From contig NIVC01001325.1 of NCBI GenBank assembly GCA_002269645.1, forward strand, positions 186,001-250,000: a stretch of DNA of 64,000 nucleotides. Reading direction: 5' to 3'. Positions 1,950 to 27,109 of this stretch are shown one piece after another. The notes under the pieces are model-generated. The model ran no database searches and was not told the DNA's origin. It saw only the letters and a list, made by a program, of their open reading frames with translations. Position numbers and translations under genes: made by a program. This DNA comes from Macrostomum lignano (taxonomy: Eukaryota). Numbering within the stretch: the first letter of the stretch is position 1; each line of letters opens with the position of its first letter.

Positions 1950-2682
1950 ACACAAGTCTGTTGCAAAAGCTGAAGACGACCCGCAGGAACGCAGCCACTT
2001 CGGTCGGGTACGCGGTCCACAAAGATTTCACGCGGACACAACTCCGCCTGGTTTGCGGGGCAGCTGAACAGGTGCGTAACCTTATTGGGTTCCAACAGCA
2101 GTCTGGAGTCCGGAGTCGATCCGTGCCGCCGCCTAGCTGGATTGTCGACTCTGGCTTGAAAATCATGGAGCAGTTGGCATAAGCTGGATCAGCGCAACGT
2201 ACCTGCGCCTGCAGGATGCACAGATGGATCTCAGGCCGCGGTCGCCAAATGACGCAGTTAATTGTGGGGCAGGCCGTCCAAAGTGTCCTAAAAATCCTAA
2301 GCACGATCCCAGCAGCCGCGTCTCAAAGATGTCCCTGGCCGGAATCAGAATCCAGTTCACGATGAAGCGCACCGCTCGTGAAAATGAAGGTCTTCAAGAG
2401 CCTGTGCAGAAGCAGTGAAAGGTGGTTGTTGTAGATGAAACCAGTGTAGGACACCTAACTGGTTCGGAGCTTGAACTGGAGCGACAGAGAGGAGATTGCG
2501 CTGGAGATTGAGCAGCCGGCCGTACTTCACAGTGGGGATCAGCTTTGGAAGTTATAGCAATGCAGCCGTTGATACAGCGGATGGCCGGCGTTCTGGGACC
2601 GTCTGCAGTTGAGTCCAGAAGGTCTGGGAGATGAAGGGCCCCAGACAGACACGGCGTAGTCTAGCAGACTTCTGTGAAGCGC
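1950..2682 (-). mobile_element. Decayed non-LTR retrotransposon (LINE, I/Nimb-like), 3' part: RT thumb and C-terminal CCHC region
   Basis: Minus strand reads RSLLDYAVSVWGP...LQTV and HLFSCPAN...LWTAYPTEVAAFL, with frameshifts. Confidence 0.7.
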
Positions 2683-3341
2683 TGAAGTGACACATTTTGG
2701 CTCTTATAGAAAGTTCCCATCCAGATGGAATGTATTTTAACCAACGAATGCGCTCCAACTAGCAAAAGCTGAGGACACGACCCCAACCTCAACCAATGAA
2801 AAACAGTTATGTACCATCCAATGCGATCAAGACTGAAAAGTACTATAAAAGCTCATGTTAACCAACCAAGAAGCTCGCGCCTCCCTGGCCTTTTCTCTCT
2901 TCCGCCTCTCTTTCGCCCTTCTCCTATCTTACCTCCTTTGACTACTTTTGATTGACACTGCCAGGGTCTCGGCCCAAACACTAAAACTGATAAATTGACT
3001 CACTAAAACTAAAACAACAACCAACCCACGTTCCACAATAGACTGAACCTTCGGTTCCCCCGAACACTTAGAAACCCCTTGGAACTCGAACAAAACGAGC
3101 TTCTTATTTGGAATTCCATCTTAGACCTTATATTTTGTAAGATAACATCTCGAGATTGTGACCATCAAATACAACGGTCTGTAAGTTAACATCAAGTGTT
3201 TGCATCATCAGGAAAAGTCAGTTGAATCCGCCGCCTCAGTTATTTGGCTCTCACATTGATATTTGAAGTAGAACAAGAGCCATAGAAGTGAGAGACCAGA
3301 AGAAGAACAATAAAACCTACATATTATTTTAAAATATTTCA
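2683..3341 (+). repeat. 5' LTR (659 bp)
   Basis: Starts TGAAG, ends TTTCA. CCAAT motifs ~2792 and ~2817, TATAAA ~2844, AATAAA ~3309. About 7 substitutions and one 3-bp indel versus the 3' LTR by eye. Confidence 0.95.
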
Positions 3342-3342
3342 C

Positions 3343-3356
3343 TGGTTCCCTGACCG
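3343..3356 (+). promoter_or_regulatory. Primer-binding site complementary to tRNA-Glu 3' end
   Basis: TGGTTCCCTGACCG lies 1 nt after the LTR. Its reverse complement CGGTCAGGGAACCA matches the 3' end of metazoan tRNA-Glu(CUC) plus CCA as recalled. Confidence 0.85.
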
Positions 3357-5143
3357 TACTTTTCCTCCGATGCTTTTCACCACAATAGCCGCCATGCCCT
3401 ACATGGGGTAGACAGCTATAGGCGTGGCTGATGGGTGCGAACGGTTGGACTGGCTTCTCCCCCCCCCCTCCCCTTTGAGCATTCGAGACTGTCAATAATA
3501 CATATTCGAAGAATGAATCGTAAATCACGAGCTCTTAAATTCAAATTCAGAATTCAAATCGGTTCTAAGTTTTGTCCAGTGCACTGAGACCTGATTCACG
3601 TCATTTCAAATTCAAAGGAGCCATGCATGAAAGTCAATACATTATCGTTCCGGAACAATTACAATTTCAATTCAATTCAAGAAACGTCGTCGAACATCTG
3701 ATATCGAGTTCTTATTCTCAAGCCTCAGAGCTTCAATGCAGAAATTCAATTCAGTTATTCTGATCCTCAATTGTTCAAGCTTCAAAGCTTCGATTTTTCT
3801 AAGACCGCGGCATCATCAATTGTTCAAGTTTATTTAATGTTGGACGCCTCTTTATTCACTGCTTTTCCACAGAATAGCAACGTTTGCTCTGGACTTCCTC
3901 ATACAAGTATGAGACTCTCCAAAGCGACTGCGCCATTCGTTTTTCCTCCTCGGTTTTTCCCAGCAGTGTGTGGCCACATCCAGAAAACTGGCTTATCTCA
4001 GATTCTCTGCCCAGTTAAGCGCCCGAAAGAAAGAACGAAAACGCAAAAAACCTGACGAGCTATTCAAACGAAGTCACTACAGCAAATATTAATCAAACTC
4101 TGGAGCCACCAATTTCTTGCTGTCAGAAAACTTCTTCGCTTATCAGACAGGCTGCTTGCCTGACCATTCATTATCTTCCTTGATTAAAGCCCACGATTCG
4201 CTGGTTGCCGAGCCTGCGTGCTCCATCCGGAAAACCTTTTTGCTTATTTTTGCAGACCGCTTGTCTAGCCTTCCATCATTTTTTCTTGATTAAAGCCAAA
4301 AAACTTACTGTTTGCAGACTTCATGAGCCCCATCTATCAAATCCTTATCCACCCAAGTTTTTTTTTTCGGATTGTTGATTCTGGCGGTTGCCCTTTATAG
4401 ATCATTTTGATGTAGAGATTAGGATGCTTTGGAATCTTCTTGTGTGTTTAATCAACTTCAGTGCCCTCCAACAAATCCTTATCTTAAACAAGCTGCCCAA
4501 GTCAGACTTCGCGCGCATACTTAATCTCCCAGAGAGACCTCTTTTCTTGATTAGAACCATCACTCAACTTCATCTCCCACGAGAAAATCTTTTTCTCAAT
4601 CAAACTGTCCAGGCCAGCCTTATCATGCCACTTCATCACCGGCCCAGCGATGTTTTTTCCGCAATCTCTGACAACCGACTTCCCCTGGGATCTGTCCCTA
4701 GCCCCCTCCCGTTTCGCATGATGGATTAAGACCAAAATAACCTCAACTTTTCTTCCATCTCCCTATTGCCAGTGGCCAAAGCCGTTTGATACCCCACAGA
4801 GCTTGTATTCTAGTTATTTTGCCAGTTATTCTGTTCTCGGCTTTACAAAAAACTACATTAACGCTATCTATTACCTACCTTATTAAAATAGAACTTTGCC
4901 CATATTTTCCACCTTTTCTTAAAAGCAGCCTGCGTTGATTTAAATAGTTAAACAGGTTGGTTTGGTTGTGTATTTTGCAAGCATCTACACACAGAGAGGG
5001 TGGTCGCGGCACCAACAGTATGTAAATATATGTACACTAATAAGTAATTCTATATCTACAAAAAACTATACCAAAAATTACAAAAACATGAAAATTAAAA
5101 TTAAAGATACATAAACCTAAAGTCAGTTATTCCCCAAATTAAA

Positions 5144-5425
5144 TTACACCAGAATAAAGTTACCCCAGCGTCGTCCCGCTACAATCTCCTCCTCGACTTG
5201 CCGGAGTTCCTGCCACCATTCGAGGCGGCGCTCACACCACTTGCGGACGGGTGTGACTAGCCGCCTGAACGCTGACAGGAGCCGTGAACCCCGCCGAGCA
5301 CCCCGCTTCGTGTCGCGGGGCCAGCCGTCCTCCAGCAGCAATGCGAGTTCCCACAACCGCCGACAGAGCCACCACCATTGATCCGCCGTCTTCCTCGTCC
5401 TTTCGAGTTGGGCTTCCATAGCCAT
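5144..5425 (-). CDS. Antisense accessory ORF (93 aa, Trp/Arg-rich, unknown)
   Basis: ATG-initiated GC-rich island in an AT-rich leader, divergent from ORF-A. Confidence 0.4.
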   Translation of the reverse strand: MAMEAQLERTRKTADQWWWLCRRLWELALLLEDGWPRDTKRGARRGSRLLSAFRRLVTPVRKWCERRLEWWQELRQVEEEIVAGRRWGNFILV

Positions 5426-5520
5426 AATGGGTTGTCGAGCAGTCGCGGTTCGGGAATGGTTGAATTGACAGAGTCGCGTAGGAGTAGCAAACCTTATCCG
5501 TTCCCCTTCAGTTTAACCAA

Positions 5521-5659
5521 TATATGCGCCCCGCCTCCCAGGCATAGCTTGGAATTCCCCCAACCAACCAATGAGGACGCCGCAAACTCTGTTCCCAACT
5601 CCCTTCAGAATTTGCCATCAACAGCACTATTCTGCTAGCACTTTTTGCAATACTATAAA
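5521..5659. promoter_or_regulatory. Candidate internal (bidirectional) Pol II promoter
   Basis: GC box GCCCCGCCTCC 5528-5538, CCAAT 5568-5572, TACTATAAA 5651-5659 (same 9-mer as the LTR TATA). Confidence 0.45.
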
Positions 5660-5799
5660 TCGACAGGATCCCGCACTTTTGGGTTAATCGCCTCTCCAGT
5701 ACCACCGAAACTGACTGCAAGATCGACCTTTCGCATATACAGCCTCTACCGACTCAGCAAACACCGTAAATACTCTCAATTGTGTATTCTTACTTCAAT

Positions 5800-6677
5800 A
5801 TGGCCGGATTTCAGCATATCCATGCCCTCATCAAGGCCCTCACCGCTTCTGATGATGTCCCGCTCTTTGACTGTATGTGTGAAATGTACTATTGCCAACA
5901 TCGCCGCAATTTCATTTATTACCACCCCTCCTATCTTTCGCCCTTCCCGTTTCCTCGCACTGTTAAGCCTGCTATTCCAGATTCCCTACATCATGATCTC
6001 TTCAATTGTAACGGACGCTTCGATCTGGTAGCCGACTTCGCCTTTACCATTGCCGACTCCTACCTTTCCCGGATCCACGACCACTGCCAATGTTCTATTC
6101 CGGGACAGATAGACAATATTCTGTTCCACCTCGAGGGCCTCCATACCCCACCCCTGCGAGGAACCTTTAAGTCTGCCATCGTCGAGCTAGCCATCCACCG
6201 CCAGGAGTTCGAGGTGCTCTTCCGCACCCTGCGTTGTGTCAATTTCCACACCGCTAATCCTCTCAACTACGAATATCTCCACCGAATGTACCGTGACAAA
6301 ATCGATGGCATGGAATGCGAACGTTATGATCAACTGCTCCAGAGCTTTGTTCCCCCCCGTTTCCGACTCACCCTCGAGCATGTTTAACCTTGCCTCACAC
6401 CAAACTCCGCCACCACTTCTGGTCGACCTGGACGCGCCATCGCGGCAGTTCTAGAGGTCAGGCCATTGAAGCTCACTTCCTCACCCTCCCTCGGTTCCAC
6501 CGGGAACACATAGTTGGCCATCCCGAGTTCACCGACGACCCCTGTTTTGAAGTTAGCGACTCTCCTTGCCCCACACTCGAGGACACATCACTTGTGCCGA
6601 AGAAAACGGTTCACCACCGCGACTACCGCTGGCAGGTCCTACGCTTGGATTGCCTCCGCATACGGTGGTCGCCTTAA
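5800..6677 (+). CDS. Accessory ORF-A of the LTR element (~290 aa, Cys/His-rich, unknown), one -1 frameshift ~6375
   Basis: ORF 5782-6387 (first ATG 5800) abuts ORF 6390-6677 in the -1 frame. Globular-looking composition and upstream TATA box. Confidence 0.6.
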
Positions 6678-7649
6678 TTACCTTATTCCCTCCCCCTAAG
6701 CCGCAATTTCTATGGCCTCAGCACCAACCCCCCTCGGGCCCTGTAAATATACTATACTCTCTCATTGTCTTTTGAGCACAGTTTCATTTCCAACTCACTT
6801 TCTGTTACCTTCTCAACTGTATTGTGTAAACACTATTTTGAAAATGATCCTTTGATCGACAAAAATTATAAAATTCAAAACCTCAAAAAGCACGTCTCCA
6901 TTTATTTTTCTTCGCTTTATCTATGCTAGACTATTCACATAGTGTTTTCGTAGCCTGCGACAAACTCAAAATGATCATTAGATTGCAAAAAAAACAATAA
7001 AACCAGGAAAACACAAAAAACAATACAATTGTTTATAGTTCATTGCGTATAATCCGTAGTGCTCTTATCATGTTAAATTTACAAAATGATCAGTCCGATC
7101 AATAAAAATTATAAAATTTCAAAAATTAAAAATAGAAAATTTACAAAACTACCGGTACAAAAACAATACTCTACGTTTGCTTAAATTATGAAATTAACCC
7201 CCTAGCTGAAACTCGTCAGAAAATTCAAAATTCAAATGCGAAATTCAAAAGCCAGAACAAATTCTCAGAAGAAAAAACTGCCGACTTCAAGAAAAAGAAA
7301 ACTGCCGATTTCAATGATACAAATTCGATTTTATTGGCCACCACTGATGTCCGTCTAGTCCAACATTCAGGAGCTCTTTTATCAGTTTATCAGTTTCGAT
7401 AAAAGTTTCAGAACCGATTAAAAAGGCAGTTCAATTCAAAATTACTTCGATTTTCAAAGCTCGTTGCAGATCACAGTTCAAAAAATCACACAGTCTCTCT
7501 TTTTCTCCCTTCCCCAGCCAGTCCGCCAACCGCAACCCTGAAAGCCATTGCCGTTTGCTCACTTTGAACTTGACACTCTCTCTTTATTTTGCTATCAGTT
7601 ACATTTCTGTGATATCGTTCCCCCGAAATTATTGATCGTATTCTTGTTG

Positions 7650-9000
7650 ATGACCTCACCTGTCCGAGATTTACTTTCCGGACCAGTATTCCAAAGCTCA
7701 AATCTTAACAGACCTCCTCAACAAAATTTAGAAATTTCTGACCGTCAAGTAGGCGAACAGCCTCCACGAAATAGTTCACCAGTTCCTAATCCGTTTGTAC
7801 CAGATAACGTTGAGCTTAATAACCCTCTTGCGGATCATTTTGAACACAACCGTGCACACTCGCCAGAACCCAGTTCCATTCTAACAGACGTGGACGAAAC
7901 AGTTCAACAAGTCCCAAACGCTATTGCTGAAGAATCTACTCTAGACATGGCTGATCAGGAAGCCGCTCCCCATGTTGATGCTGCAGCCACAAATGCTGTC
8001 CGCGAACTCACTGATGTTATGAATCGCAGTCTACAATTGCAATCGAATCATCCCGTCTCAGCTACTGCTCTTGCTAAAATTCGTCAATCCCTGAAAGGAA
8101 TCGACCAAATGCATGACTTCCGTTCCTTCACTGAAGAGTTCGACTTGATCACACGCTCCTTTGGACTATCGGAGAACGCAAAGATTCGGCTCTTCCCGCG
8201 ACTACTGAATGACCTTCTTAAACTCGAATACAGTCGCCTTTCTGCCGTGGTCCAAGCCTCTTATCCAGCCACCATTGAGGCACTATCTCAACGCCTTTGG
8301 GAAGTAACCATTGGTTCGGCTCTAACGCTGCATAATGCAACAACCCGGAAGCAACAGTACGGCGAACCGTTCCTGTCCTATTTCACCGACATTCGTCGAA
8401 AGCTCCGGTCAGCTATGCCGGAAATACCGGAAGAATTTCCGGAAGATGCCGGTCCGGAAACACCACCCGCGAACCAAGCTGTCATCGACCAGCGAAACCG
8501 AGACTTTCTCGCTACCCTGATGGCTACGACTATCAACAATGCTCTACCCTACATCAAACGAGAACTCTTGAAGCAAAATATCACCACGGAAAGTACGCTA
8601 ATCAACAAGGCCATCCGCGTGAACAAATCCGCGACTCCACCATGGACTCTGATGGCACTGACTTGAAGGCTCTGACTGAGCGCCTAACAACCCTAGAGAA
8701 AACAACGAAGGAAGCCAATCAACAGGTAGTTGCTCTCTGCAAACACAAACCAAGCCACTCACTGCTAATGTGCAACAAAAGCCGACTTGTTATCATTGCG
8801 GTCGACCTGGACATTATGCCGCCGACTGTCGTCGAAGGAATGACGAACAGCCTCGTCCCTTCCGACCTAACTCTGACGATCGAAGAAACGCAGCTCACTA
8901 CGGCTCGGACGCCCGCGAAATCGCTACCAGCAGGCGCCGCCACGGTTGACCTGTAACTATTGCCGGAAACCAGGACACTCTATTAACCAGTGCCGACTAC
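7650..9000 (+). CDS. gag: Gag (capsid + two CCHC zinc knuckles), interrupted by three -1 frameshifts (~8618, ~8745, ~8935)
   Basis: ATG 7650. Gag-like helical CA (FRSFTEEFDLI...QQYGEPFLSYF). Knuckle CYHCGRPGHYAADC at ~8788-8829 lies in a frame absent from the ORF track. Second knuckle CNYCRKPGHSINQC at ~8952-8993. Confidence 0.88.
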
Positions 9001-9500
9001 GAGCCCAACGTACACAAGGCTACGGTCCACCGGCGACACAACAATCACGATTCCCACCTCGTCAAGACTACAGAAATCGGCCTCAGCAACGCTATCCGCC
9101 TCGATACAACGACACCAACAATCAACGACAAGCTCTGAGATTCGCGCAACAACAATATCCTCCAATACGCGCCATCACTGCTCAGGATCCTGAAACGTCC
9201 CACCCAGGATGGAATCAACAGCCGCAGATTGGATGGACGACTCACGACGCTCCCGAGTCTGCCCAACTGATGCACATTGCTACAGTTGATGAACGCCCAC
9301 CGACTTTTGGAAACGAAATTCGCTACTCTGGAGACGCTAAGCAGCTGAAATCTTTACTCAAAAAACCGACTACTGCCGCTGCGACTATCAACTCTATTCG
9401 CCTTTGTACGGTTGAAAGAGTGACTAACGCCTACACTCCACCGAACAACAACAACAACCGCGAGAATACCGTGAAAGCTTCCGTTGGAATTCGCCAATCA

Positions 9501-12260
9501 CTACTGGCACTTTTTCTCCTTTGCCTAGTAACTTCACTCTTCTCACTAGCCAACGCTACTCCGGTAACGACGTCAACTCCACCATCGATCGAAAGACAAT
9601 CTCAAGAGGGCTTCATTGACACGCCAATGGTCTGTCCGTACAACCAGATCCCACGAATCTTTACGATACCACACGAAATCCGTTGTGAACAGCTCAAACA
9701 CAAAACCACACCGGCACTTCCGTTAAAACTAGAACTCTACAAAACTAACGTCGAAACCAGCTCCCTGGTCATGACTGTCTGTTTTCGCGAGAAAATCACT
9801 ATTAGATGTGATACTGCGGTGGTAAGAACCTGGACATCCGCCCTAGTAGAGTTAGAGCCACAACCAGTCACCAAAGCTGATTGTGAAAATTGGGCGCGAA
9901 CAAAGCTATCGCCTGATGGATCATTAGTGCTAAAGACTGCGTCAACTCAGTCTATCCAACGCCTGCAATCGACATTCAACACGCAAAATGCTGTGCGTTG
10001 CACTCCTGGTTCCCATTCAGAACAAATAGTAACAACGGTGATCACCGGAATCCCAGCCTACTCAACAGCAGATCAAAAAATGGAATCTTTTTCCTTCCCA
10101 ATGGACAACTGCAAACTCGCAGACAAATTTTGTACAATTAAAACAACTGCACAAGAAATGCGAGCTTTCAACCTACCTTTGCCGATACTAACATCTCCCT
10201 GGGATCCTTTGGAAACTGAAGCAATCTACCAAATTGACGTGAAAGAACCAAGACACCTGAATCTCATTTGGACACCTCCACCGCTCGCTGATTGTCCTTT
10301 AAAACCATTTCGTACTCTTGAAGGCAACTTAAACTCCGGCTTGTTCTTAACTAATGACCAAAAATTGGGACTAACCTTCAACCCAGTGCCGTCGACTCAC
10401 ACTCTCACCTGCACTGGCGTCCGTAAGACATTGTACCTTTCAACGCAAGGTCTCTACGTAGACATCCTTGACAACAAAGAAGCAGACTTTCTCGCCACCT
10501 TACGAAGCCCATTAGAGGAAGCCACTCCAAAACCTCAAATTAGCAAAGAAACCACTTCTTCGAGACAAAAACGTCGTTCACCACCAGCCATACTACCAAC
10601 GCCACCAACTATATTACCAGTTCAGCAATCGACAACTCAACATCCTTCCACTACGACAACACAGTCACGACAACTCCTACCGCCGCAACCTTTACGACAA
10701 GAACGACCTGATCATCCACCGACGTCAAGTACCTCTACAACAATGACGCCAACAACTACGATACTAACTACTACAAAATCAACACCAACAACTACAATTT
10801 TGACAACAACAACTCCACCGACTACAACAACACCACCGACTACAACGAAAACACCACCGACTACAACAACACCACCGACTACAACGACAACACTACCGAC
10901 TACAACGACAACACTACCGACTACGACAACACCACTGACTAGAACGACAACACCACCGACTACAACGACAACACCACTGACTACAACGACAATGCCACTG
11001 ACTACAACGACAACAACACCTACAACAACCGTAACACCGACAACTCCAACAACCACAACTGCTACAACCTCAGCAGCAACAACGACAGCCGACTCAACTA
11101 CAACGACAACGAAAGTGACGACACAACCTCGTGCCACCACCACTCTACTGCCAGCAACCTCAACCTCTAGCAGCACAACCAGTGCACCAGCAAAGTCTAC
11201 CACCTCGACCTTCACGACGAACCTACCAACGACAACAACCAATCCGCAACTGGCTTCTATTTATACGAATCTAGCAGTTCCACATCACGAACCAAAAGGT
11301 AGTCAACCGGACCTCCTGCTACTACCACGCAACAAGCGAAGCACAGACGACAAAACCATCGCAGCCCCTTCAGGCAACTCCACTGCGCAACTCTCATCAA
11401 CGTTCGCATCCGCTGAACTTCTTGCTGGACAACTACAAGGAGCTGCTAGTAAAGCTCGAAAAGACCTTCTCCAAGTGCAGAGACAACTTGCAACTACTCA
11501 ATGCATGATGTACGCAACTAATCTCAAGTACAACCGACAGTTATACTACACACAACCAACGCTCGCTGCTCGACTCTTATTAAATGATCCTTTCTTGCGA
11601 ACTAGATCCATTGCTGGATACCTCTTCGTCTACCAGTGCAAACCTCTACATCAATTCTGCTTTGTCCAACCAAAGTATAAGACGAACCAATGCTTCATGC
11701 GTCCCCCACTGGAATTCCGCCTACAAAATTATACTGTTCTTGGTTTTTGGACACAACGACTCGTATTGTCTCCACAGCTACTCCAGCTCTAATCTCATGC
11801 GACGCCTTCCCATACTACTACCTGCCTAAACAATCGATGCTATTCAAGACCACACTAAATTTTTTGAGATTCGAACCCACAACCGCTAATGTCAGATCCG
11901 ATGAAAATTATCGGTTGTCCGATTCGCAAACTTCCGTCTCCGAAAGCATCTTCAAACCTATGGGAGATATCAATTATACTTCACTTCATAGCCCGATAGC
12001 GGTGACCGACCTAATGCACCAGTTCATGCAAACTCGCGATTTCCTGATTACGGTTTTCAAACTCCCGAATCGAACACGACACAGAACAGCCATGCTGACA
12101 GTGCATTCCTGGACTCAAAATTAGCTCTCCTCAATCTATGGTCTTCGACGATATTCAACTGGGATCGACTAGTCGCAAACTATCAAGAAAAGTTCGTATT
12201 AACAGCAGCTGTAATTGTCTACATTGCCGTTATTATCTTCGTGTGCAATCTTGGCCGACT
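9501..12260 (+). CDS. env: Envelope glycoprotein, class III (herpesvirus gB / rhabdovirus G-like), embedded between gag and pol; frameshifts ~11738 and ~12055
   Basis: Signal peptide LLALFLLCLVTSLFSLANA|T (9501-9557) and Cys-patterned ectodomain. gB-like block GQLQ...QC...PTLAARLLL...R..AG..F..QC...CFMRPPLEF. Furin sites RQKR and RNKR. TM FVLTAAVIVYIAVIIFVC (12193-12246). Confidence 0.8.
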
Positions 12261-15200
12261 ATGCGTTGCCAGCACCATCCGTTACGGCAGAACGCACACT
12301 ATACAAGTGCTGCGGCAACAACGAACTCCAACTCGAGTAGAATCACAAAACGACTACTCCCAACAACAACAACTGATGCCACCGAGACAAGCGCCAACAC
12401 CTTCAGCACCCATCGAAACGATTGAACTTCGTGCCACCCTTCCGCCACCACGGAGACCACCACCAGAACCGAAAGTTCCAAAATGGCCAGCAAACTACTC
12501 ATACGCCTTTGTTTTAAAGCACCTAACAACAGCAACAATGATCAACCTGTGGTGCCGCAAAGCACCGCATACTCGACACAGATGCACCGCCCTCATTGAC
12601 AGCGGCGCCTCGATCTCCTGCATCTCTCCGGCATTCGCCAAGAAGCTTCGAGTACCACTACAAGATACCAACATGAACGCCATTTGTGCAGGAGGACAAC
12701 AACTAAACCTCAATAAAAAGGCTACTTTTGATCTCGAAATCGATGGACGAAACCACAAGATATCAGCCTTTGTGCTAGATACTCCCGACGCTGACTATGA
12801 CTTGCTTCTAGGAGTGGAAACCTTCAAATCACTGGAATACCACTACAATTCGACTACTCAAAAGCGACAGCTAAGCTCGGCAATGAGCAATTTGCGATGC
12901 TCAACTCAATTCAACAGTTGAAAGAAACCTCTGCAGTGATGCAAAAGAAACTAGAGTTACCACCACAGACAACGCATCAAGTTACGTTGAAACTTTCTTC
13001 TCGACATGAGCCAACGATTCCTGTTCTATTCGTCCCTAAGGACCACACGATCCGAAAACACCAGTTGATGATACCAACTTGCCTTGTTTCTGTCAACCCG
13101 GACGGACAAACTATCAACGTAGAAGTCACCAACCCGTCGCTGACAACACAAACCTTGCATCCTCAACAAGTCATTGGAAATCTGGCCAACATGTCTGACT
13201 ACAACATCGTGCGCCCAGCAGCTCAAATCAACAGTCTACGTACGCTGCAACAAGAAGCACCTACGACTGACATGATTCGTACTCAACTCAAACAAGCCAA
13301 CCAGCACCTCTCAGCCGAGCAGAGTGAACAATTGGTCACTCTGATGAACAAGTACCGTGACGTCTTGGCACTATTGCCAACTGATATGGGTTGCTCTACC
13401 CAATACACGGCTCACCTGCATCTGTACCCACACTCTGAGCCAGTCACGTCCAGACCGTATCCAATCGCTCATGGATTACAAGAACGATTTGACGAACTTA
13501 TCGAAAACTTCCGTCAAAAAGGAATTATCAGTCCGAGTGAATCTGAATACTCGAGTCCATGTCTTCTCGTGGAAAAGAAGACGCTCGACGCTCAAGGTCG
13601 TCGACAGCTAAGACTCGTGACGGATTACCGAAAACTGAACAAGCTAATTCGTGCTCCTAGCATCCGACCTCCGAAGATTCCGGATTTGCTACATCGATTG
13701 AAGAACGCTAAACTGTACACACTCTGTGACCTAGCAGATGCTTTCTACCAAGTTCGAATCGATCCAGAAAGCACAAAATACACTGCGTTCATTGCACCGA
13801 ACGGCCTACTTTGGGAATTCAATCGACTACCTCAAGGACTCAAATCCAGTCCTAGCTTAATGTGCCGTCTTGTAGCATTGTTAACAGCTGACTCTCCAAA
13901 TCAGATTGCCTACTTGGATGACGTCATGCTCATCGCCGAAGACTTCACCGGCATGCTCAAAGAAGTTGAGCGCTTCTTCCAAAAGTTACGACATCATGGA
14001 TTGCGAATTTCACTCCGAAAATGCATCTTTGCTAAAACAGAGGTACAATATGTCTTGGATTTGTGGTTTCTGCTCAAGGCATTAGACCAGCTCCCAGCCT
14101 TATCGAAAAAATCAAGACCTTTCCTGTGCCTCAAACGGTTAAACAACTACAATCTTTCCTTGGACTTGCAAATTTCTACAGAACGCACATTGCTGGCTAC
14201 TCACGAGTAGTACAACCACTTCTGAGTATTATCAAAAATACTTCGAAGCCTAACAAATTCGTCTGGACGAACGCTGCCCAAACAGCCTTTGAAAAACTGA
14301 AACAACTTTTCTCTACGGACATACTACTGGTTCATCCAAATCCGCGAAAACCGTACTTCCTGCACACTGACGCCTCGGATACCGCCATTGGAGCAGTACT
14401 CTCACAGCTAGATGACAACAACCATCAACGCCCGGTTGCCTACATCTCTAAGACGTTAAGCTCAACTGAACAACGCTATCCACCGATTGAACGCGAAGCA
14501 TACGCCATCTATTGGGCAATAAAGAAGCTACACGTGTTCCTCTACGCTTCTTACCAACAGTTCCACGTCTTCACTGATCACCAGCCACTCAAGAGCCTAT
14601 TCAGCGACAAGCAGCCAATTTCAAAACGACTTCAGAAGTGGATTCTAGCGATACAAGATTACAACTTCACCCTTAACTACGTGAAGGGCAAATCAAATGT
14701 AGTAGCAGACTGCCTTTCACGCATCCCCAAAGTCTGTCAGATACAATCGCTGTCAACATTCAACGGACTGCAGGCTGCTATTGATCAAGATCCACTATTG
14801 TCTACAATCAAAGCGCTTCTATCGGAACAGTCACCCACACACGAGCTGTCCAAGAAAGATCAACAATATGTTCGCCGACACCTGGCACGTTATTTCCTGG
14901 ACGGAAACACCCTGTACTTTGAAGATGACGAAGGACGAAGCCGCTTCGTGATACGAACACGCTATCGTGAAGCTCTTTTGACAAGCAACCACTCGACAGC
15001 CCTTGGTGGTCATCTAGGTCACCAAAAGACAGCAGACAAAATCAGTCACTTCTATTACTGGCCTACACTACGACAAGATGTCTACAATTTCGTTAACAAC
15101 TGCAAAGTCTGCCACAAAGCGAAAACAGCACCTCGACTGCGACCAATGCACAAAGCCGTAAAATTCAACGAGGTTTTCTCTCATTTGGCTATTGACCTTG

Positions 15201-16197
15201 TAGGTCCACTGCCACCAGCTTCACACGGCCGCGACGTCTACAAGTACATACTCACGGCCCAATGCGGCGTTAGCAAATTCCTGTTCACTATCCCGCTAAC
15301 TGAGACAACTTCTGCAACTATCTGCAACAACCTCTTCAACCGTGTGTTCGCTTTCGCAGGACTACCAGCACACATCATCTCAGACAATGGACCCCAATTC
15401 ATCTCGCAAGAATTTCGAGAGTTTATGGGTGCCCTTGGAATACACCTGATCTACACCTCGGTGTACCAACCATCCAGCAACTTCGTCGAACGCGCTCACA
15501 AGACACTGAAGCAAACTCTTACGGCCTTCGTCCATGACAAACCAGATCTCTGGATTGACTTCCTACCTGCGGTGACACTAGCAATCAATACCGCCGCCCA
15601 CTCAACGATGAACGAATCACCATTCTACTTGTTCTTCGCTCGAGACTTCCTGCCACCCAACGCACGGATCATGGAACACCAGACAACTGCATCATGGACG
15701 TTATTAAACCAGTCAATTTGACCTGTTCAGCTATTTTGCTTGCCAGAGAAGTCGCCAAGGAACTTCTGCACAACTCAGCTGAACAGCGCGCTGAAAACTC
15801 TGATAAGAAGACCAACAGCCGCTACATACGCCCAGGTGCTCGATGCTATTTGGATATCTCAGCAACGAAGGAGACAAAATTCTCCAATCCTTATCGTGGC
15901 CCAATGCGTCTACTAGCATGGCTCTCCGATCAGAACGCACTAATTTTTTACGTCAACCGGCCAAGCGAACGACCAATCGTGGTACATGCCTCCAAGCTGA
16001 AACCATGGCCTGGAGATGGACTCAGCGCTGGACCTAGTCACCTACCTGAGTTTACAACTGATGACATTCAGGTCCACCACAACCATCGGCCGCCATTGAG
16101 CAAGTCCATCGCGCTGCAAACCACGTCCACTGATGAGCCACCAGTCCAGCCACAGACGCATGGCTACAACCTAAGATCGAAGAACAAGAAGTTGTGA
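12261..16197 (+). CDS. pol: Pol: aspartic protease, RT, RNase H, integrase; frameshifts ~12840, ~14052, ~15690
   Basis: PR LIDSGASISC (D at 12598). RT LVTDYRKLN, DLADAFYQ, LPQGL, YLDD (13911). RH TDASDTAIGAVL, EREAYAI, TDHQPL. IN H-x6-H...C-x2-C, AIDLVGP, SDNGPQF, VER. Confidence 0.95.
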
Positions 16198-16506
16198 ATG
16201 ATCAAAAATCTTCTAAATTTCTTTTCTCCTTTCTTTTCCTTAACTGACAATATTGCTTTCTCTTCCTTTCTTTCTCTTCTTCTTTTCTTTCCTTCTTTTC
16301 TAACAATTTTGCTCTCTCTCCCTGCATTGCGACACTTTACGTGACTATATTGACGAACTGACACAAATGAACTTTTATTTTCTGTTTTATCAACAAAAAG
16401 CTACAAAAATTTTCTTTCTTTTCCCTCTTTACATTGCAGAGCTCACACGCTAAAACAACATTTTAATTTTGTGTATCTATTGCTTTTCTCCCTTTTCCTT
16501 TCTCTT

Positions 16507-17436
16507 ATGGATCCATTTCCGCAACCAGTGGATATCCGACCACAGTTAAATCATGATCTTATTTGCCTCGCAACCGTTGTTGCTTGGTTCACTGAAGCAA
16601 TATTTTATTCTGAAACTATTGGTGAATCCCAACGGCTACGCATGGCCTCCGCTTTCTTCTCTCGTTTTTATGTTATCCGCCATCATCGCTTTTATCCTAA
16701 GATGCTCCGCGTCCTGCGAATTAGTCTATTTGGTGTGCTGCGTCGTACTCACTCACGACCACGTATACAGAACTTTTCTCCCACTATGACTGGCGTTCTA
16801 CGCCGCAGCTTCGTACCAATTATACATTTTCTTTTCTCTCCTAATATGTCTATCGACGATTTCTTTCAACTCTCTGCTTCTACTCTCCCTCAATCATGCC
16901 TGCGCTTTAACCAAGACACTTGGCCTTTGTTGCTTTCCTCTCTGCGCTACCCATGGCAACAATTCCGCCATGATGCTGCTAATCTTTCGGCGCAAAAGTT
17001 AACATCTACGCTCCAAAATTATTTAACCTCCTTCGATTATCTCGCCCCTTATGTTTATCAAATTTTTGCTCCGTTTTTTCCCCGTCCTACTAAGAGCGCT
17101 ATCATACGCACGCTAAATCGTCTGTATCCGCACAATTTTTTCTTCACCCACGCTGTTTTCATTCTCTCAACGCGTTCAAGAAGCTTTGCTTTTATAATTA
17201 TCGATTTTTATTCTCGCTCGGTAGTTGCCCATACTATCTTCCCTTTCTCTTGTCCTCCGCTTCGTCGATATTTATACAATATTCACCGTATACGAAATGC
17301 TCATGTTGGCTACCCTAACACCTTGCCAGAGTATGCCGCTCTTCATACCTTCTCCATCAAGCGTATTAAGCATTCTCCTCCTTCTGATCTTAATATTAAT
17401 TTTGCTCGACTGGCATACGTTTTTTATATGATTTGA
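16507..17436 (+). CDS. Accessory ORF-B (309 aa); C-terminal half resembles a degenerate integrase core
   Basis: Uninterrupted ORF with ATG 16507 downstream of a strong acceptor (AG at 16438-16439). Contains FIIIDFYSRSVVAHTI...GYP...LHTFSIKRIKHSP. Confidence 0.7.
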   Translation: MDPFPQPVDIRPQLNHDLICLATVVAWFTEAIFYSETIGESQRLRMASAFFSRFYVIRHHRFYPKMLRVLRISLFGVLRRTHSRPRIQNFSPTMTGVLRRSFVPIIHFLFSPNMSIDDFFQLSASTLPQSCLRFNQDTWPLLLSSLRYPWQQFRHDAANLSAQKLTSTLQNYLTSFDYLAPYVYQIFAPFFPRPTKSAIIRTLNRLYPHNFFFTHAVFILSTRSRSFAFIIIDFYSRSVVAHTIFPFSCPPLRRYLYNIHRIRNAHVGYPNTLPEYAALHTFSIKRIKHSPPSDLNINFARLAYVFYMI

Positions 17437-17647
17437 TTCACCATCATCGCTCACTATTTTAATCCGCTTTTTCTCCAATATTGAGCGTTGAAACGCCACA
17501 CATTTTTTCCCAAAAAATACTCACAAATATTTTCCGTTTCTCTGCCTATTACTCCTCCGTTATTTTGCGCTAACCTTTGTAAAGCCTATGCTATTTTTTT
17601 CTCTGTTATTCTGTCAACTGCTTTTTCGAACGTCATCACGCACTAAC

Positions 17648-17900
17648 CTGCCCAACCCTGCTCAACCCTGCTCAACCCTGCTCAACCCTGACCTACACGA
17701 CTGCTGCTCTGTGCCTGGTCTTTGCCAATTGCTGCCCCTGGCGCTGCTGTAACCAACTTCAAACAACAACCTTGCTCTACACAACTGCCGCTCTATGCCT
17801 GGTCTCTGCCTACTGCTGTCTCTGGCGCTGCCTCAGCCAAAGTCGAACAACAACTTTGCTCTACCCAGCTGCCGCTCTATTTTATGCCTGGTTTTTGCAA
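17648..17900. repeat. Short tandem repeats inside the element: 11-bp CCCTGCTCAA(C) x4, then ~84-bp unit x2.5
   Basis: Directly visible repeated units. Confidence 0.7.
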
Positions 17901-18022
17901 GTCGCTCGACCTCTGGTGCTGCTTCCACCTAAGTCAACCAACTAGCACTAAGGCATATGGCTCAACAACGTCTGTTCTTTCATGACTGCTCAGTCTGCTC
18001 ATCTGACAACTTCGGCATCACA

Positions 18023-18373
18023 TCATGTGGTGGCCCTGAAAAAGGCCGTTGTAACGTTCAAAGGACGGCAGAGCCGGCAGAGCAGCCAGGGCGCTAACAC
18101 GGCCGCTTCTACCGACTCCACCGAAGGCGCTTCCGCGTCGGCCGCGGCGGCCGGTGTTTCTGATGGGCCCGCGCGACAGCAACAGCGACGGCAACAACGA
18201 TAGCACTGTTGGCAGACCGAGCACTGGCCCAACAGTGACAGTAACACTAGTGCCCCCAGCACCACCAGGACCACGATAGTGCAAGTCCAGCGGACGTCAG
18301 CTTTATCACAATGCTCCTGCGACTGTCGTGCTAGATCTCCTAGCAGAAAGCGCAAGTTCTTCATGGTACTCAT
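18023..18373 (-). CDS. Antisense accessory ORF: small single-pass membrane protein with Cys/Arg-rich juxtamembrane segment (116 aa)
   Basis: MSTMKN...WTC TIVVLVVLGALVLLSLLG QCSVCQQCYRCCRRCCCR. Minus-strand TATATAA at ~18463-18469. Confidence 0.55.
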   Translation of the reverse strand: MSTMKNLRFLLGDLARQSQEHCDKADVRWTCTIVVLVVLGALVLLSLLGQCSVCQQCYRCCRRCCCRAGPSETPAAAADAEAPSVESVEAAVLAPWLLCRLCRPLNVTTAFFRATT

Positions 18374-19296
18374 GATGCTAATTAGAGTGGGAATTAATTT
18401 GACCAAAAACACTTTCGGTTAAAAAAATCACCTAACTCTCCTCGTTCTGTTTTAGTTTGGTGTTATATACCCCTTTTGGGCCTTTTCATATTACCAATTC
18501 CAGAACCAGAATCGGTTCGGAATTCCAAGAAAAACAGCAGTATAACTATTAAACTCTGTTAATATTTGACTGCCTTAACAACCTAAATTAGCACAATTTT
18601 TCACTTTCTTCTTGGCGATTGTCATTCAATAATAAAAACTGTATAGCACGTATCTCCCTCTAGTTATGGAGACAAAAAGTTATACTTCACAAATTGGTTC
18701 TGGTTCTGGAACCAGAGCAAGCAATATGAAAAGGCCCTTTGACTGTACAATTTTTCCTGGAATTTTCACTATTTCATGCTCCCTATTTAAAAGATTTTAA
18801 CCTCATAGCTTGTACATATGATTTATTAACTGCGCGGCTCCTTGCTACAACCACCCCAACTTTCACTGTATAACGATTTTTATTACCTTCCTTCTAACTC
18901 AAACGCGTTTTCATTTTAAGCTTGTGTCGCTAAACCCCCGTTTTGCTCTGTACACCTATTTTATCGATTTTTTTGGTTAACCCTCGCTACGTTTTATTCC
19001 ATCCTTGCTTAACTAGTTTAGCTTCGCCTAACTAAAGGCCCTCTGCGCTATCCCTTCTTTTGCTATTTAGACTGATGTTGTACTTTAACCTATGTTACCT
19101 TGCTTAAATTGGTTCCCTTTTACTCAAACATTTTTGCTAACATTATTCACTGCGCACTATTTTTTTCTGCAACAACTTTTCTCGTTTAATACAATGCGTT
19201 ATCTTTTTCTGCAATTTTATCAATTTTAGCCCCCTGCTATACTTTTTCTGTTGTTATGCGCTCGGAGGGCCTCGCTTCCCCAAAAAATAGAGCGAA

Positions 19297-19952
19297 TTAA
19301 GTGACACATTTTGGCTCTAGAAACTTCCCATCCAGATTGAATGTATTTTAACCAACGAATGCGCTCCAACTAGCAAAAGCTGAGGACACGACCCCAACCT
19401 CAACCAATGAAAAACAGTTATGTACCATCCAATGCGATCAAGACTGAAAAGTACTATAAAAGCTCATGTTAACCAACCAAGAAGCTCGCGCCTCCCTGGC
19501 CTTTTCTCTCTTCCGCCTCTCTTTTGCCCTTCTCCTATCTTACCTCCTTTGACTACTTTTGATTGACACTGCCAGGGTCTCGGCCCAAACACTAAAACTG
19601 ATAAATTGACTCACTAAAACTAAAACAACAACCAACCCACGTTCCACAATAGACTGAACCTTCGGTTCCCCCGAACACTTAGAAACCCCTTTGAACTCGA
19701 ACAAAACGAGCTTCTTATTTGGAATTCCATCTTAGACCTTATATTTTGTAAGATAACATCTCGAGATTGTGACCATCAAATACAACGGTCTGTAAGTTAC
19801 CATCAAGTGTTTGCATCATCAGGAAAAGTCAGTTGAATCCGCCGCCTCAGTTATTTGGCTCTCACATTGATATTTGAAGTAGAACAAGAGCCATAGAAGT
19901 GAGAGACCAGAAGAAGAACAATAAAACCCACATATTATTTTAAAATATTTCA
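19297..19952 (+). repeat. 3' LTR (656 bp)
   Basis: Near-identical copy of 2683-3341 (starts TTAAG, one mismatch). Preceded by purine-rich AAAAAATAGAGCGAA (PPT, ~19282-19296). Confidence 0.95.
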
Positions 19953-20700
19953 GCGCCTCATGTAAGTGGTGCCGGCCAGGTAGCGCAGAATGCTTGTTCT
20001 CTTCTGGACTTTGTCCGCTAGGGTGAAGACGTCTCAAAAAAGACAGCTAAATTGGGGTCGAAAATGATCCTCATAATTTTCAGGTACAGCGCTTGCGGAA
20101 GTGGCGCACCGTTTGATATAAACACGCAGTTAACGCGGGTTAGAAAGGTGGCCGTAAATTTTAAAGTTGAGAAAACTGCATCCACTCCTACGAGGCCGAC
20201 CCTCCCCGTGGCAGTAAGCATGCAGGGTGGGTGGGACGCTGACGCTTCTTCCCGGGCCGCCAAAGCGAACCGTCCCTCCCGGCAGCATGACCCCGCGGGC
20301 AAGGGTGAGCACGTTACTGAGGGCGGAGCCGACCGACGCCCAACGCGCAGCGCCAGACGGCGTGGCCTGTTCCAGCGAGCAGCTGCAGTGGTCCGCACCG
20401 CCAAAATCAGTTAGCTGAAGCGAAAGGTCGCCGGGACGCTCAGGCGCACCAGTTCGTCCAGGGACGGTGAGGACGTCCCAGCTAACTGGGCCCAACCCCT
20501 TGGGGCAGGGCTGACTGGAGACGATCCGCCTGCCAAGACGGCTGGCTGTTCCAGGGCATTGGGCCACTCCGAGGTGGAAGACCCTGTCGCCGGTGGGCGA
20601 AGGGCGGCGAATGTCGCCTACTCCCTTCCGACTGGTCAGGGGTCGATCCTCTGTTGAAGGCACTCACGAACGACCGCGTTTTTCTAAACTTTCCCAGCTG
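19953..20700 (-). mobile_element. Continuation of the same decayed LINE on the other side of the LTR insertion
   Basis: Minus strand reads NGAPLP...IIFDPNL...LADKVQKRTSILRYLAGTT. It joins EALHRSLLDY across the GCGC target site. Confidence 0.6.
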
Positions 20701-26192: not shown

Positions 26193-26490
26193 CATACATG
26201 CGCAACCTCCAAAATTCGGTCGGCCGTGCGACTTAGTTTTAACAAAAATGCGACGTAGTTTTTGGCCAAAAATGCGACTTACATGTAAAAAAACCCTAAA
26301 GCAAAATTAACGCAACTTTGGGTAAACGGCAGGAGTAACTATGACTGTTTTATTAAGCCAAAATGCCTCGTCAGCTACTTAGTACTACTACTTGGGTATT
26401 TTTTTAGGTGGACATTTTTGCGACTTCCTTGGTTGGCTGCCAAATCAGTCGGCCGGATCGGCCGACTCGGCCGACTGTTGCGCACGTATG
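26193..26490 (+). mobile_element. MITE copy 1 (298 bp, 14-bp TIR CATACATGCGCAAC)
   Basis: TIRs at both ends, flanked by a 9-bp direct repeat ATTCATTAT. Confidence 0.85.
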
Positions 26491-26809
26491 ATTCATTATT
26501 ATATGTCATTGATAGAATTCCTATCACATGAGCTTTTGGTCAATGGACAAACTTGAAATTACTAGAAAAGCTCCAGCCTTCTTTGAGCAGTGCGCTGCAA
26601 GCAAAATATGATTCCTTAGTGCAACCAATTATAAAAGTGTAGTACAGGCTATAGCCTGAAGTAGCCACATGTGTATAAGATGCTAAGGGATGATTTTTGC
26701 ATAGGAGCTACTAATGTTGATAGAACTAGGGGAGGTGAGAGATTCAAAGCAAGGGACGTAAACCATGCATAGTTTGATCATAAGTTTGATTATTGCATGG
26801 GTTCTGGGG

Positions 26810-27109
26810 CATACATGCGCAACAGTCGGCCGAGTCGGCCGATCCGGCCGACCGATTTTGCGGCCAACCAAAGAAGTCGCAAAAATGGCCACCCGAAAAA
26901 ACACCCAAGCAGTAGTACTAAGTAGCTGACGAGGCATTTTAGCTTAATAAGACAGTCATAGTTACTCCTGCCGTTTACCCAAAGTTGCGGTAATTTTGCT
27001 TTAGGGTTTTTTTACATGTAAGTCGCATTTTTAGCCAAAAACTACGTCGCATTTTTTTGTTAAAACTAAGTCGCACGGCCGACCGAATTTTGGAGGTTGC
27101 GCATGTATG
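26810..27109 (-). mobile_element. MITE copy 2, inverted relative to copy 1
   Basis: Reverse complement of 26193-26490 with scattered mismatches, flanked by an 8-bp direct repeat TTCTGGGG. Confidence 0.85.

What the first reader, a model, noticed from the sequence alone, without database searches (positions are those of the whole stretch)
7650..16197. Gag-Env-Pol order in one reading frame: flavivirus-like polyprotein topology in a retroelement
Seen: after the second zinc knuckle the same open frame (8946-11792) runs into a hydrophobic signal ending A-N-A|T (9501-9557) and the glycoprotein ectodomain. The TM (12193-12246) is in the same open frame as the protease DSG (12598). So Gag-to-Env and Env-to-PR are each directly fused with no stop. 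Inference: the internal signal would translocate Env, signal peptidase would free Gag, and the TM would leave Pol in the cytosol tethered to the Env tail until PR cuts it. This resembles capsid-signal-envelope-nonstructural processing in flaviviruses and implies 1:1:1 stoichiometry with membrane-anchored Pol packaging. Non-canonical env positions are reported for a few nematode elements, so novelty needs checking.
Basis: partly seen in the sequence, partly recalled or inferred. Interest (0 to 1): 0.88.

Follow-up and report, generated by a model that had tools for sequence, protein, structure and literature searches.

The report
Flatworm retroelement with envelope inside polyprotein
A jumping gene of a flatworm makes its capsid, a herpes-type membrane-fusion protein and its enzymes as one long chain in the order Gag-Env-Pol; this layout is already published for worms, but short budding-type signals on the envelope protein's tail suggest how such a chain could build a virus particle.

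Summary
Real, but the layout is known. The region is the coding core of a 17.3-kb Ty3/gypsy LTR element (659-bp LTRs, 4-bp target duplication, tRNA-Glu primer site), host very probably Macrostomum lignano. Both fusions are confirmed: knuckle-signal-ectodomain and TM-protease. This copy is not one frame: it has eight frame changes, each a site where it differs from all or all but one of the 11-16 other copies, including a second assembly of the same insertion. Related lineages in the genome carry unbroken 2,458-2,866-aa Gag-Env-PR-RT-RH-IN frames. Env is a class III (herpes gB/nyamivirus-like) fusogen under purifying selection (dN/dS about 0.1), so the flavivirus likeness is topological only. 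Gag-Env-Pol order is published for nematodes, bryozoans and flatworms, including a Macrostomum relative (PMC13524379); a continuous ORF in nematodes is recalled from Sacco 2022 (not held). Not found in my searches: P[S/T]AP and YPx[L/I] late-domain-like motifs in the Env-protease spacer (11 of 13 elements; shuffles 0.8), a mucin insert between two furin-type sites, and three accessory ORFs. Processing, 1:1:1 stoichiometry and absence of splicing are untested.

The parts
2679..2682 (+). Left 4-bp target-site duplication (repeated at 19953-19956)
   Evidence: 4-bp duplications also flank several solo LTRs of the family
2683..3341 (+). 5' LTR, TG...CA, 659 bp
   Evidence: 7 substitutions and 3 gap columns against the 3' LTR
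3343..3356 (+). Primer-binding site complementary to the 3' end of host tRNA-Glu
5800..6387 (+). Accessory ORF upstream of gag, 195 aa here and 232-278 aa in most other copies read; no family found
   Evidence: dN/dS 0.21-0.40
7650..8780 (+). Gag, capsid-like region from the first ATG; no N-terminal Gly2; two frame changes in this copy
   Evidence: homologous to the N-terminal part of P0001. No Pfam capsid hit, so 'capsid' is by position and homology
8785..8832 (+). CCHC zinc knuckle 1
   Evidence: Pfam zf-CCHC E 4e-07
8952..8993 (+). CCHC zinc knuckle 2
   Evidence: sequence; no Pfam hit for this frame
9165..9398 (+). Two protease-site-like motifs (IRAI, INSI) between knuckles and signal, resembling the motif before RT at 13227
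   Evidence: inference
9501..9557 (+). Internal signal-like hydrophobic segment ending A-N-A
   Evidence: core found in 20 of 20 loci; a similar segment precedes the ectodomain in 9 of 9 lineages printed
9558..10562 (+). Env ectodomain, N-terminal half (beta-rich, class III domains I/II-like)
   Evidence: dN/dS 0.09
10563..11339 (+). Thr/Pro-rich mucin-like insert (about 250 aa, tandem 18-21-nt units) between two furin-type sites, RQKR 10563-10574 and RNKR 11328-11339
   Evidence: sites found in 19 of 20 and 20 of 20 loci; disordered in the model
11340..12192 (+). Env ectodomain, C-terminal half (long central helix and crown, gB-like); two frame changes in this copy
   Evidence: profile hits herpesvirus gB, E 2e-11; dN/dS 0.07-0.11
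12193..12252 (+). Env transmembrane helix
12253..12480 (+). Env tail / Env-protease spacer with PSAP at 12400-12411
   Evidence: P[ST]AP in 17 of 19 loci of the family
12481..12830 (+). Aspartyl protease, DSG at 12598
   Evidence: Pfam gag-asp_proteas E 4e-08
13575..14051 (+). Reverse transcriptase core, YLDD at 13911
   Evidence: Pfam RVT_1 E 8e-22
14339..14662 (+). RNase H
   Evidence: Pfam RT_RNaseH E 7e-36
14960..16197 (+). Integrase (zinc finger, core, C-terminal part) to the final stop
   Evidence: Pfam Integrase_H2C2 and rve
16507..17436 (+). Accessory ORF of 309 aa downstream of pol, in the usual env position; no family found
   Evidence: full-length in 14 of 31 matches; dN/dS 0.32-0.57; no Pfam or Atlas hit
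18023..18373 (-). Antisense small ORF: short N-terminus, one TM helix, juxtamembrane cysteine cluster (116 aa here, 86-92 aa in other copies)
   Evidence: open in 9 of 9 other copies read
19282..19296 (+). Purine-rich tract before the 3' LTR
19297..19952 (+). 3' LTR

Best explanation
This is one insertion of a multicopy, envelope-carrying Ty3/gypsy element (a Gag-Env-Pol errantivirus in the operational sense of PMC13524379) in a flatworm. The family encodes one polyprotein of roughly 2,850 aa; the frame changes of this copy are mostly assembly errors. Shown: domain order, both fusions, class III fold, purifying selection. Inferred mechanism: Gag is made in the cytosol. The internal signal sends the ribosome to the ER and the ectodomain is threaded into the lumen; signal peptidase cuts after A-N-A. 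The TM stops transfer, so tail, protease, RT, RNase H and integrase fold in the cytosol, tied to the Env tail. Gag, which has no obvious myristoylation site, stays on the membrane through the leftover signal anchor until the element's protease cuts behind the knuckles. Furin-type cuts on both sides of the mucin insert prime the fusogen. Clustering of Env trimers brings protease monomers together, and the PSAP motif of the tail (with YPx[L/I] in relatives) recruits ESCRT for budding, a job that retroviruses give to Gag.
For: Fusions. Breaks peculiar to this assembly. Unbroken 2,458-2,866-aa frames with knuckle-Env-TM-PR-RT-IN order in 8 of 8 loci fetched (chosen for their long frames); 16 of 135 Env matches in the genome lie in frames of 2,400 aa or more. 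Env-TM-PR-RT-IN is one frame in two outside proteins, P0015 and P0016, 58-60% identical in RT-RNase H. Class III fold: gB E 2e-11 by profile, Foldseek gB E 8.5e-14 and nyavirus glycoprotein E 2.7e-18; 10 invariant cysteines across 10 sequences. Selection: ectodomain dN/dS 0.07-0.11, like Pol (0.02-0.17), tail 0.28. Late-domain-like motifs: P[ST]AP in 9 of 13 and YPx[LI] in 9 of 13 spacers, either in 11 of 13, shuffle means 0.33, 0.45 and 0.77, 0 of 10,000 shuffles reaching each count; their order varies, and tails of different groups are mostly about 20-30% identical. None in the stretch before the protease of 14 env-less controls, though only 9 of these had 68 residues or more to inspect. PTAP/PSAP-TSG101 and YPxL-ALIX binding is textbook knowledge, recalled.
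Against: No copy of this family was seen unbroken end to end. TM and protease share a frame in only 9 of 16 distinct copies, and 4 of 15 share one length difference about 10 codons after the TM; similar recurrence occurs inside domains, so error or shared descent is likelier than a programmed shift, but this is not excluded. The signal was judged by hydropathy and by eye only; in L052 it missed the 1.6 threshold, and its 24 codons show 4 replacement against 1 silent change. Two of 13 spacers (L133, P0015) have neither motif and the window's family has PSAP only. The 13 spacers fall into about four related groups, so they are not independent, and the motifs were chosen after I saw the sequences. 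The structural model is moderate (mean pLDDT 56.5, pTM 0.38; Foldseek TM-scores 0.2-0.35). No transcript or protein evidence was obtained.
Confidence: 0.62

Rival explanations
1. The DNA is one frame, but the cell does not make equal amounts: splicing, early polyadenylation or degradation yields extra Gag or an env-skipping Gag-Pol, so the element copies itself inside the cell and Env is used only at times.
For: Capsids normally need Gag in excess of Pol (general knowledge). Cer1 has no stop between gag and pol yet makes a spliced message from the same RNA (PMC10309623, passages).
Against: No spliced form was seen, but none could be tested. Env is conserved as strongly as Pol and lies in frame in every long frame examined.
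Confidence: 0.3
2. The first hydrophobic segment is an uncleaved signal anchor, so Env is held by two membrane helices and Gag is freed only by the element's protease.
For: PMC13524379 reports gB-type ectodomains flanked either by signal and TM or by two TMs. Protease-site-like motifs lie between knuckles and signal in the five polyproteins scanned.
Against: The segment ends in small residues at -3/-1 here (A-N-A) and in several relatives (A-T-A, V-R-A, V-Q-T), after a basic stretch in most, and is followed by a variable polar stretch before the first conserved cysteine.
Confidence: 0.2
3. The tail motifs are trafficking signals (Yxx-hydrophobic endocytosis or multivesicular-body sorting of Env), not budding signals; they came with the captured env gene and have no link to the fusion with Pol.
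For: YPx[LI] also fits the Yxx-hydrophobic sorting consensus (recalled). Two Env proteins that end without a protease also carry such motifs near the C-terminus (P0006 PSAP; P0009 PPAY and IYPSL).
Against: P[ST]AP and [LIM]YPx[LI] occur together in 7 of 13 spacers, as in lentiviral p6 (recalled), while the Gag part of the four unbroken polyproteins scanned holds few such motifs (one PSAP in L051, one YPAL in L054, one PPPY in L053).
Confidence: 0.3
4. The order is an assembly chimera, or a decayed element with an unrelated glycoprotein gene inserted.
For: Eight frame changes in this copy.
Against: Same order in 17 copies and several related lineages, LTRs about 1% apart, purifying selection, outside relatives.
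Confidence: 0.02

Closest known systems
GAG-ENV-POL errantiviruses with HSV/gB-type Env of Platyhelminthes, Bryozoa and Nematoda (Chary and Hayashi, eLife 2026, PMC13524379), including Platyhelminthes_Rhabditophora_Mlig_errantivirus_2
   Same: Ty3/gypsy Pol, gB-type Env, Gag-Env-Pol order, multicopy, same host species. The primer-site 12-mer listed for Mlig_errantivirus_2 occurs in related lineages whose Env aligns with this one (12 of 142 loci, e.g. L053-L056, L058).
   Different: A different family: LTR 659 against about 864 bp, 17.3 against about 10.6 kb, tRNA-Glu primer site, mucin insert, three accessory ORFs, RT-RNase H of the sister lineage about 41% identical to the lineages with the published primer site. 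The paper speaks of three ORFs; its main text has no occurrence of 'polyprotein', 'ESCRT', 'late domain', 'cytoplasmic tail', 'splic', 'mucin', 'single ORF' or 'fused'. Figures and the GitHub sequences were not seen.
Nematode endogenous retroviruses (NERV) of Sacco et al. 2022, J Gen Virol 103:1739
   Same: env between gag and pol (as cited in PMC13524379). Recalled, not read: one continuous gag-env-pro-pol ORF, env like Nyamiviridae glycoproteins, extra ORFs. The best viral fold match here is a nyavirus glycoprotein.
   Different: Host is a flatworm. Whether the lineages share one origin was not tested; PMC13524379 finds the order non-monophyletic. Paper not held.
Flavivirus, hepacivirus and alphavirus structural polyproteins
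   Same: Topology only: a capsid followed by an internal signal, a glycoprotein and, in flaviviruses, cytosolic enzymes (recalled).
   Different: Class III, not class II, fusogen; reverse-transcribing, integrating element; aspartyl protease. Flavivirus E appeared only as a low Atlas lead (0.79) and not among the fold matches listed.
Drosophila errantiviruses (gypsy, ZAM) and Bel/Pao elements with chuvirus-like glycoprotein
   Same: LTR retroelements with a captured fusogen.
   Different: In the Drosophila elements env lies after pol and is F-type (PMC13524379); its own spliced message is recalled. Bel/Pao is another superfamily.

Membership tests
Ty3/gypsy (Metaviridae) LTR retrotransposon | Pol order PR-RT-RNase H-IN | tested here: met
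Ty3/gypsy (Metaviridae) LTR retrotransposon | LTRs TG...CA, target-site duplication, tRNA primer site, purine tract | tested here: met
   the 3' LTR of this insertion starts TT instead of TG
Ty3/gypsy (Metaviridae) LTR retrotransposon | RT grouping with named Ty3/gypsy clades | tested here: inconclusive
   ten env-bearing rows form one side of a 98/95 branch against 15 unnamed gypsy-type polyproteins; no named reference clades, no env-less elements of this host, one long branch (L052)
GAG-ENV-POL errantivirus with HSV/gB-type Env (PMC13524379) | gB-type (class III) ectodomain between signal or TM and TM | tested here: met
GAG-ENV-POL errantivirus with HSV/gB-type Env (PMC13524379) | env between gag and pol | tested here: met
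GAG-ENV-POL errantivirus with HSV/gB-type Env (PMC13524379) | intact, uninterrupted ORFs in multiple copies | tested here: inconclusive
   17 distinct copies, none unbroken as assembled; related lineages unbroken
GAG-ENV-POL errantivirus with HSV/gB-type Env (PMC13524379) | identity with the listed element Mlig_errantivirus_2 | tested here: not met
   LTR length, element length and primer site differ
NERV (Sacco 2022) | continuous gag-env-pro-pol ORF (recalled) | tested here: met
   at family level and in related lineages; not in this copy as assembled
NERV (Sacco 2022) | chromadorean nematode host and NERV RT clade (recalled) | tested here: not met
   nearest named proteins are Macrostomum lignano; no NERV sequence was retrieved, so the RT clade itself is untested
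Flavivirus-like polyprotein | class II envelope protein and RNA-dependent RNA polymerase | tested here: not met
Flavivirus-like polyprotein | signal peptidase plus viral protease free the capsid | not testable with these tools
   motifs fit; cleavage needs bench work
ESCRT late domain | P[ST]AP / YPxL motif conserved beyond chance | tested here: met
ESCRT late domain | binds TSG101 or ALIX and is needed for release | not testable with these tools
   no host ESCRT protein was modelled or assayed

The most novel reading that the evidence does not exclude
In these flatworm elements the whole particle is assembled from one membrane-threaded polyprotein: the signal anchor replaces matrix as Gag's membrane tether, Pol is packaged by being tied to the Env tail, Env clustering switches the protease on, and the ESCRT late domains sit on the Env tail instead of Gag. 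That would be a mode of retroelement assembly that I did not find described, and this family would add a furin-excised mucin shield and an antisense FAST-like small membrane protein.
Probability: 0.35. Interest if true: 0.7.

Novelty: new member of a known kind. Interest (0 to 1): 0.42.

Why it matters
The order itself is published, so the headline is not new. What remains open in the paper read is how such elements are expressed and assembled. If one polyprotein is threaded through the ER membrane, the usual retroviral solutions (excess Gag, spliced env, matrix-driven budding, late domains in Gag) cannot apply unchanged. The conserved tail motifs and protease-site-like motifs give specific, testable answers, in a laboratory flatworm with transgenesis (PMC12801592) that carries several such lineages with recent insertions.

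Tried and rejected
Pfam finds nothing in the frame 8877-11789; the Atlas gave a Monjiviricetes-fusion lead at 0.89 with low recognition, used as a lead only. A profile search for long homologues returned 1 protein among 1,910 candidates and an Env-TM-protease region search 2 among 5,927; no nematode or bryozoan relative was retrieved, so the tail-motif test covers one genome plus two outside proteins. A metagenome scan with P0015 confirmed none of 19 candidate stretches. Sequencing runs: no RNA holder listed on record; read-level evidence on splicing and on the frame changes was not obtained. My first tail cut-off clipped several YPx[LI] motifs (4 of 11); the fixed rule is the one reported. 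PPxY is not convincingly enriched (3 of 13; 152 of 10,000 shuffles). Homology between the 5' and 3' accessory ORFs is not supported (E 0.004 with the window's ORF, 0.72 with another copy). The 3' ORF gave no Atlas hit and no usable model (pLDDT 41). Literature: 'gag-env-pro-pol' 0 papers; 'gag-env-pol' plus 'retrotransposon' only the eLife paper and its preprint; late-domain terms with gypsy and envelope listed three retrovirus papers, not read; NERV terms nothing relevant; Macrostomum terms six papers, of which PMC12801592 has no mention of envelope or glycoprotein in its main text. Four look-ups in the scan's earlier notes gave nothing that bears on this.


Full report
Observation. The frame 8877-11792 runs from the second zinc knuckle through a hydrophobic segment (9501-9557, ending A-N-A) into a cysteine-rich ectodomain; the frame 11992-12921 runs from a TM helix to the protease DSG. 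RT, RNase H and integrase follow in Ty3/gypsy order. The title overstates one point: this copy changes frame eight times between 7650 and 16197.

The element. It spans 2683-19952 (17.3 kb): LTRs of 659 bp with 7 substitutions between them, a 4-bp target duplication, a primer site matching host tRNA-Glu and a purine tract. A DNA search of the genome gave 33 matches (18 of 347 candidates scored, so a lower bound); the 20 loci fetched represent 17 distinct copies, one 99.7% and the rest 90-95% identical to this one. The nearest named proteins are from the flatworm Macrostomum lignano; one gene model (P0004) is nearly identical to parts of this family, so that is very probably the host.

Are the breaks real? 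The same insertion, with the same target site and flank, is assembled on two more contigs; the complete one differs by 9 substitutions and 10 small length differences in 8.2 kb and is broken at two other places. At each of the eight sites the window differs from all, or all but one, of the 11-16 other copies. Other copies break at scattered sites (87 bins hit by one copy, 16 by two), and every pair of neighbouring landmarks is joined in one frame in at least half of the loci that cover it. Against this: no copy of the family was seen unbroken; TM and protease share a frame in 9 of 16 distinct copies; and 4 of 15 share a difference about 10 codons after the TM, a level of recurrence also seen inside domains. 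Related lineages settle the architecture: 16 of 135 Env matches in the genome lie in open frames of 2,400 aa or more, and 8 of 8 such loci fetched show knuckle, ectodomain, TM, protease, RT and integrase in one frame. Two outside proteins of unknown host (P0015, P0016) hold Env-TM-PR-RT-RH-IN in one frame; P0002, with the same source label and contig length as P0015, holds Gag-signal-Env.

Env. Ten aligned ectodomain-bearing sequences (20-65% identical to the first) keep 10 cysteines. Their profile matches herpesvirus glycoprotein B in the PDB (best E 2.3e-11; 14 gB sequences among 21 matches). A model of the family's ectodomain (868 aa, mean pLDDT 56.5, about 286 central residues disordered) matches gB (E 8.5e-14) and nyavirus, rhabdo-like and chuvirus glycoproteins (best E 2.7e-18) with low TM-scores. 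It is a class III fusogen, unrelated to flavivirus E. Pairwise dN/dS between copies is 0.07-0.11 in the ectodomain, 0.02-0.17 in Pol, 0.06-0.21 in Gag and 0.28 in mucin and tail. A Thr-rich insert of about 250 aa lies between two R-x-K-R sites, at the position where insert-free relatives have one such site; the sister lineage has a shorter insert.

How it probably works. Shown: order, fusions, fold, selection. Inferred: the internal signal translocates the ectodomain, the TM stops transfer, and Gag and Pol stay cytosolic. Motifs of the kind V/I/A-N/Q/R-S/A/T-I/L recur behind the knuckles and at the RT and integrase boundaries in the five polyproteins scanned, among other places; this suggests that the element's protease trims Gag off its anchor. 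The TM-to-protease spacer (69-107 aa) carries P[ST]AP in 9 of 13 elements and YPx[LI] in 9 of 13, either in 11 of 13, against shuffle means below 1, while 14 env-less controls show none (limits: about four related groups, motifs chosen after inspection, five controls too short). These are the classic ESCRT late-domain motifs (recalled), here on the Env side. The 1:1:1 ratio holds for synthesis from an unspliced message only; splicing was not testable, and Cer1 shows that a stop-free gag-pol can coexist with a spliced message (PMC10309623, passages).

What is known. Chary and Hayashi (PMC13524379; I read the abstract, the first part of sections 5 and 9, section 14, passages, and rows of supplementary files 1, 2, 5 and 6; figures not held; preprint passages) report GAG-ENV-POL elements with gB-type Env in nematodes, bryozoans and flatworms, list one Macrostomum element and count 93 POL and 51 ENV ORFs in ENV-POL order for that species. 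Its primer site occurs in related lineages here, not in this family. They credit Sacco et al. 2022 for nematode elements; that paper is not held, and my recollection that it describes a continuous gag-env-pro-pol ORF is unverified. The main text of the eLife paper does not discuss a polyprotein, splicing, ESCRT or the tail; its figures, GitHub files and the Sacco paper may. PMC12801592 (abstract, first part and passages; supplements not opened) catalogues the host's LTR families without mentioning envelopes in the main text. PMC11952523 (passages) describes FAST-like small proteins in insect LTR elements, all in sense orientation.

Verdict. A real, recently inserted new family of a published kind. 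The tail motifs, the mucin insert and the accessory ORFs are the parts worth following.

Noticed in passing
window 18023-18373 (-): Antisense small ORF inside the element, open in 9 of 9 other copies read (86-92 aa): conserved N-terminus of about 30 aa, one TM helix, a cluster of cysteines and arginines, acidic tail; 50-74% identical between copies. Resembles FAST/sORF2 proteins in layout (PMC11952523, passages), but has no Gly2 and is antisense, whereas those are all sense.
   Followed up: partly
window 16507-17436 (+): 309-aa ORF in the usual env position, under purifying selection (dN/dS 0.32-0.57); no Pfam, Atlas or fold assignment.
   Followed up: partly
window 5800-6387 (+): His/Cys-rich ORF upstream of gag, more diverged between copies than the polyprotein (66-98% identity; dS up to 0.9), dN/dS 0.21-0.40; some matches lie on contigs where the 9.5-kb coding query found no match (C87, C1130, C2121).
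   Followed up: partly
G000:C1861:77269-90174 (L060, L061): A third assembly of the same insertion lacks about 4.4 kb from Env into RT (matches to query 403-2749 and 7172-9501 abut).
   Followed up: no
G000:C1753 (L080, L082, L083, L087, L088): Several LTRs of this family on one contig, three spaced about 3.4 kb apart and each followed by the primer site: a tandem array of LTR plus leader.
   Followed up: no
L052, L129 (and P0001): Knuckle number and type vary between lineages: three CCHC in L052 and L129, one in L053 and L054, CCHC plus CHHC in the sister lineage.
   Followed up: no
L133 (G000:C103:773700-783600): Most distant Env lineage found (20% identity) keeps signal-ectodomain-TM-protease in one frame but has a shorter spacer without late-domain-like motifs.
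   Followed up: partly
P0002, P0015: A Gag-Env-Pol element labelled as a bacterial metagenome-assembled genome (Kangiellaceae); almost certainly eukaryotic DNA in the bin.
   Followed up: no
window 33200-63500: Many unrelated minisatellite arrays (units of 8-46 bp) and a 247-bp inverted repeat at 26244-27056.
   Followed up: no
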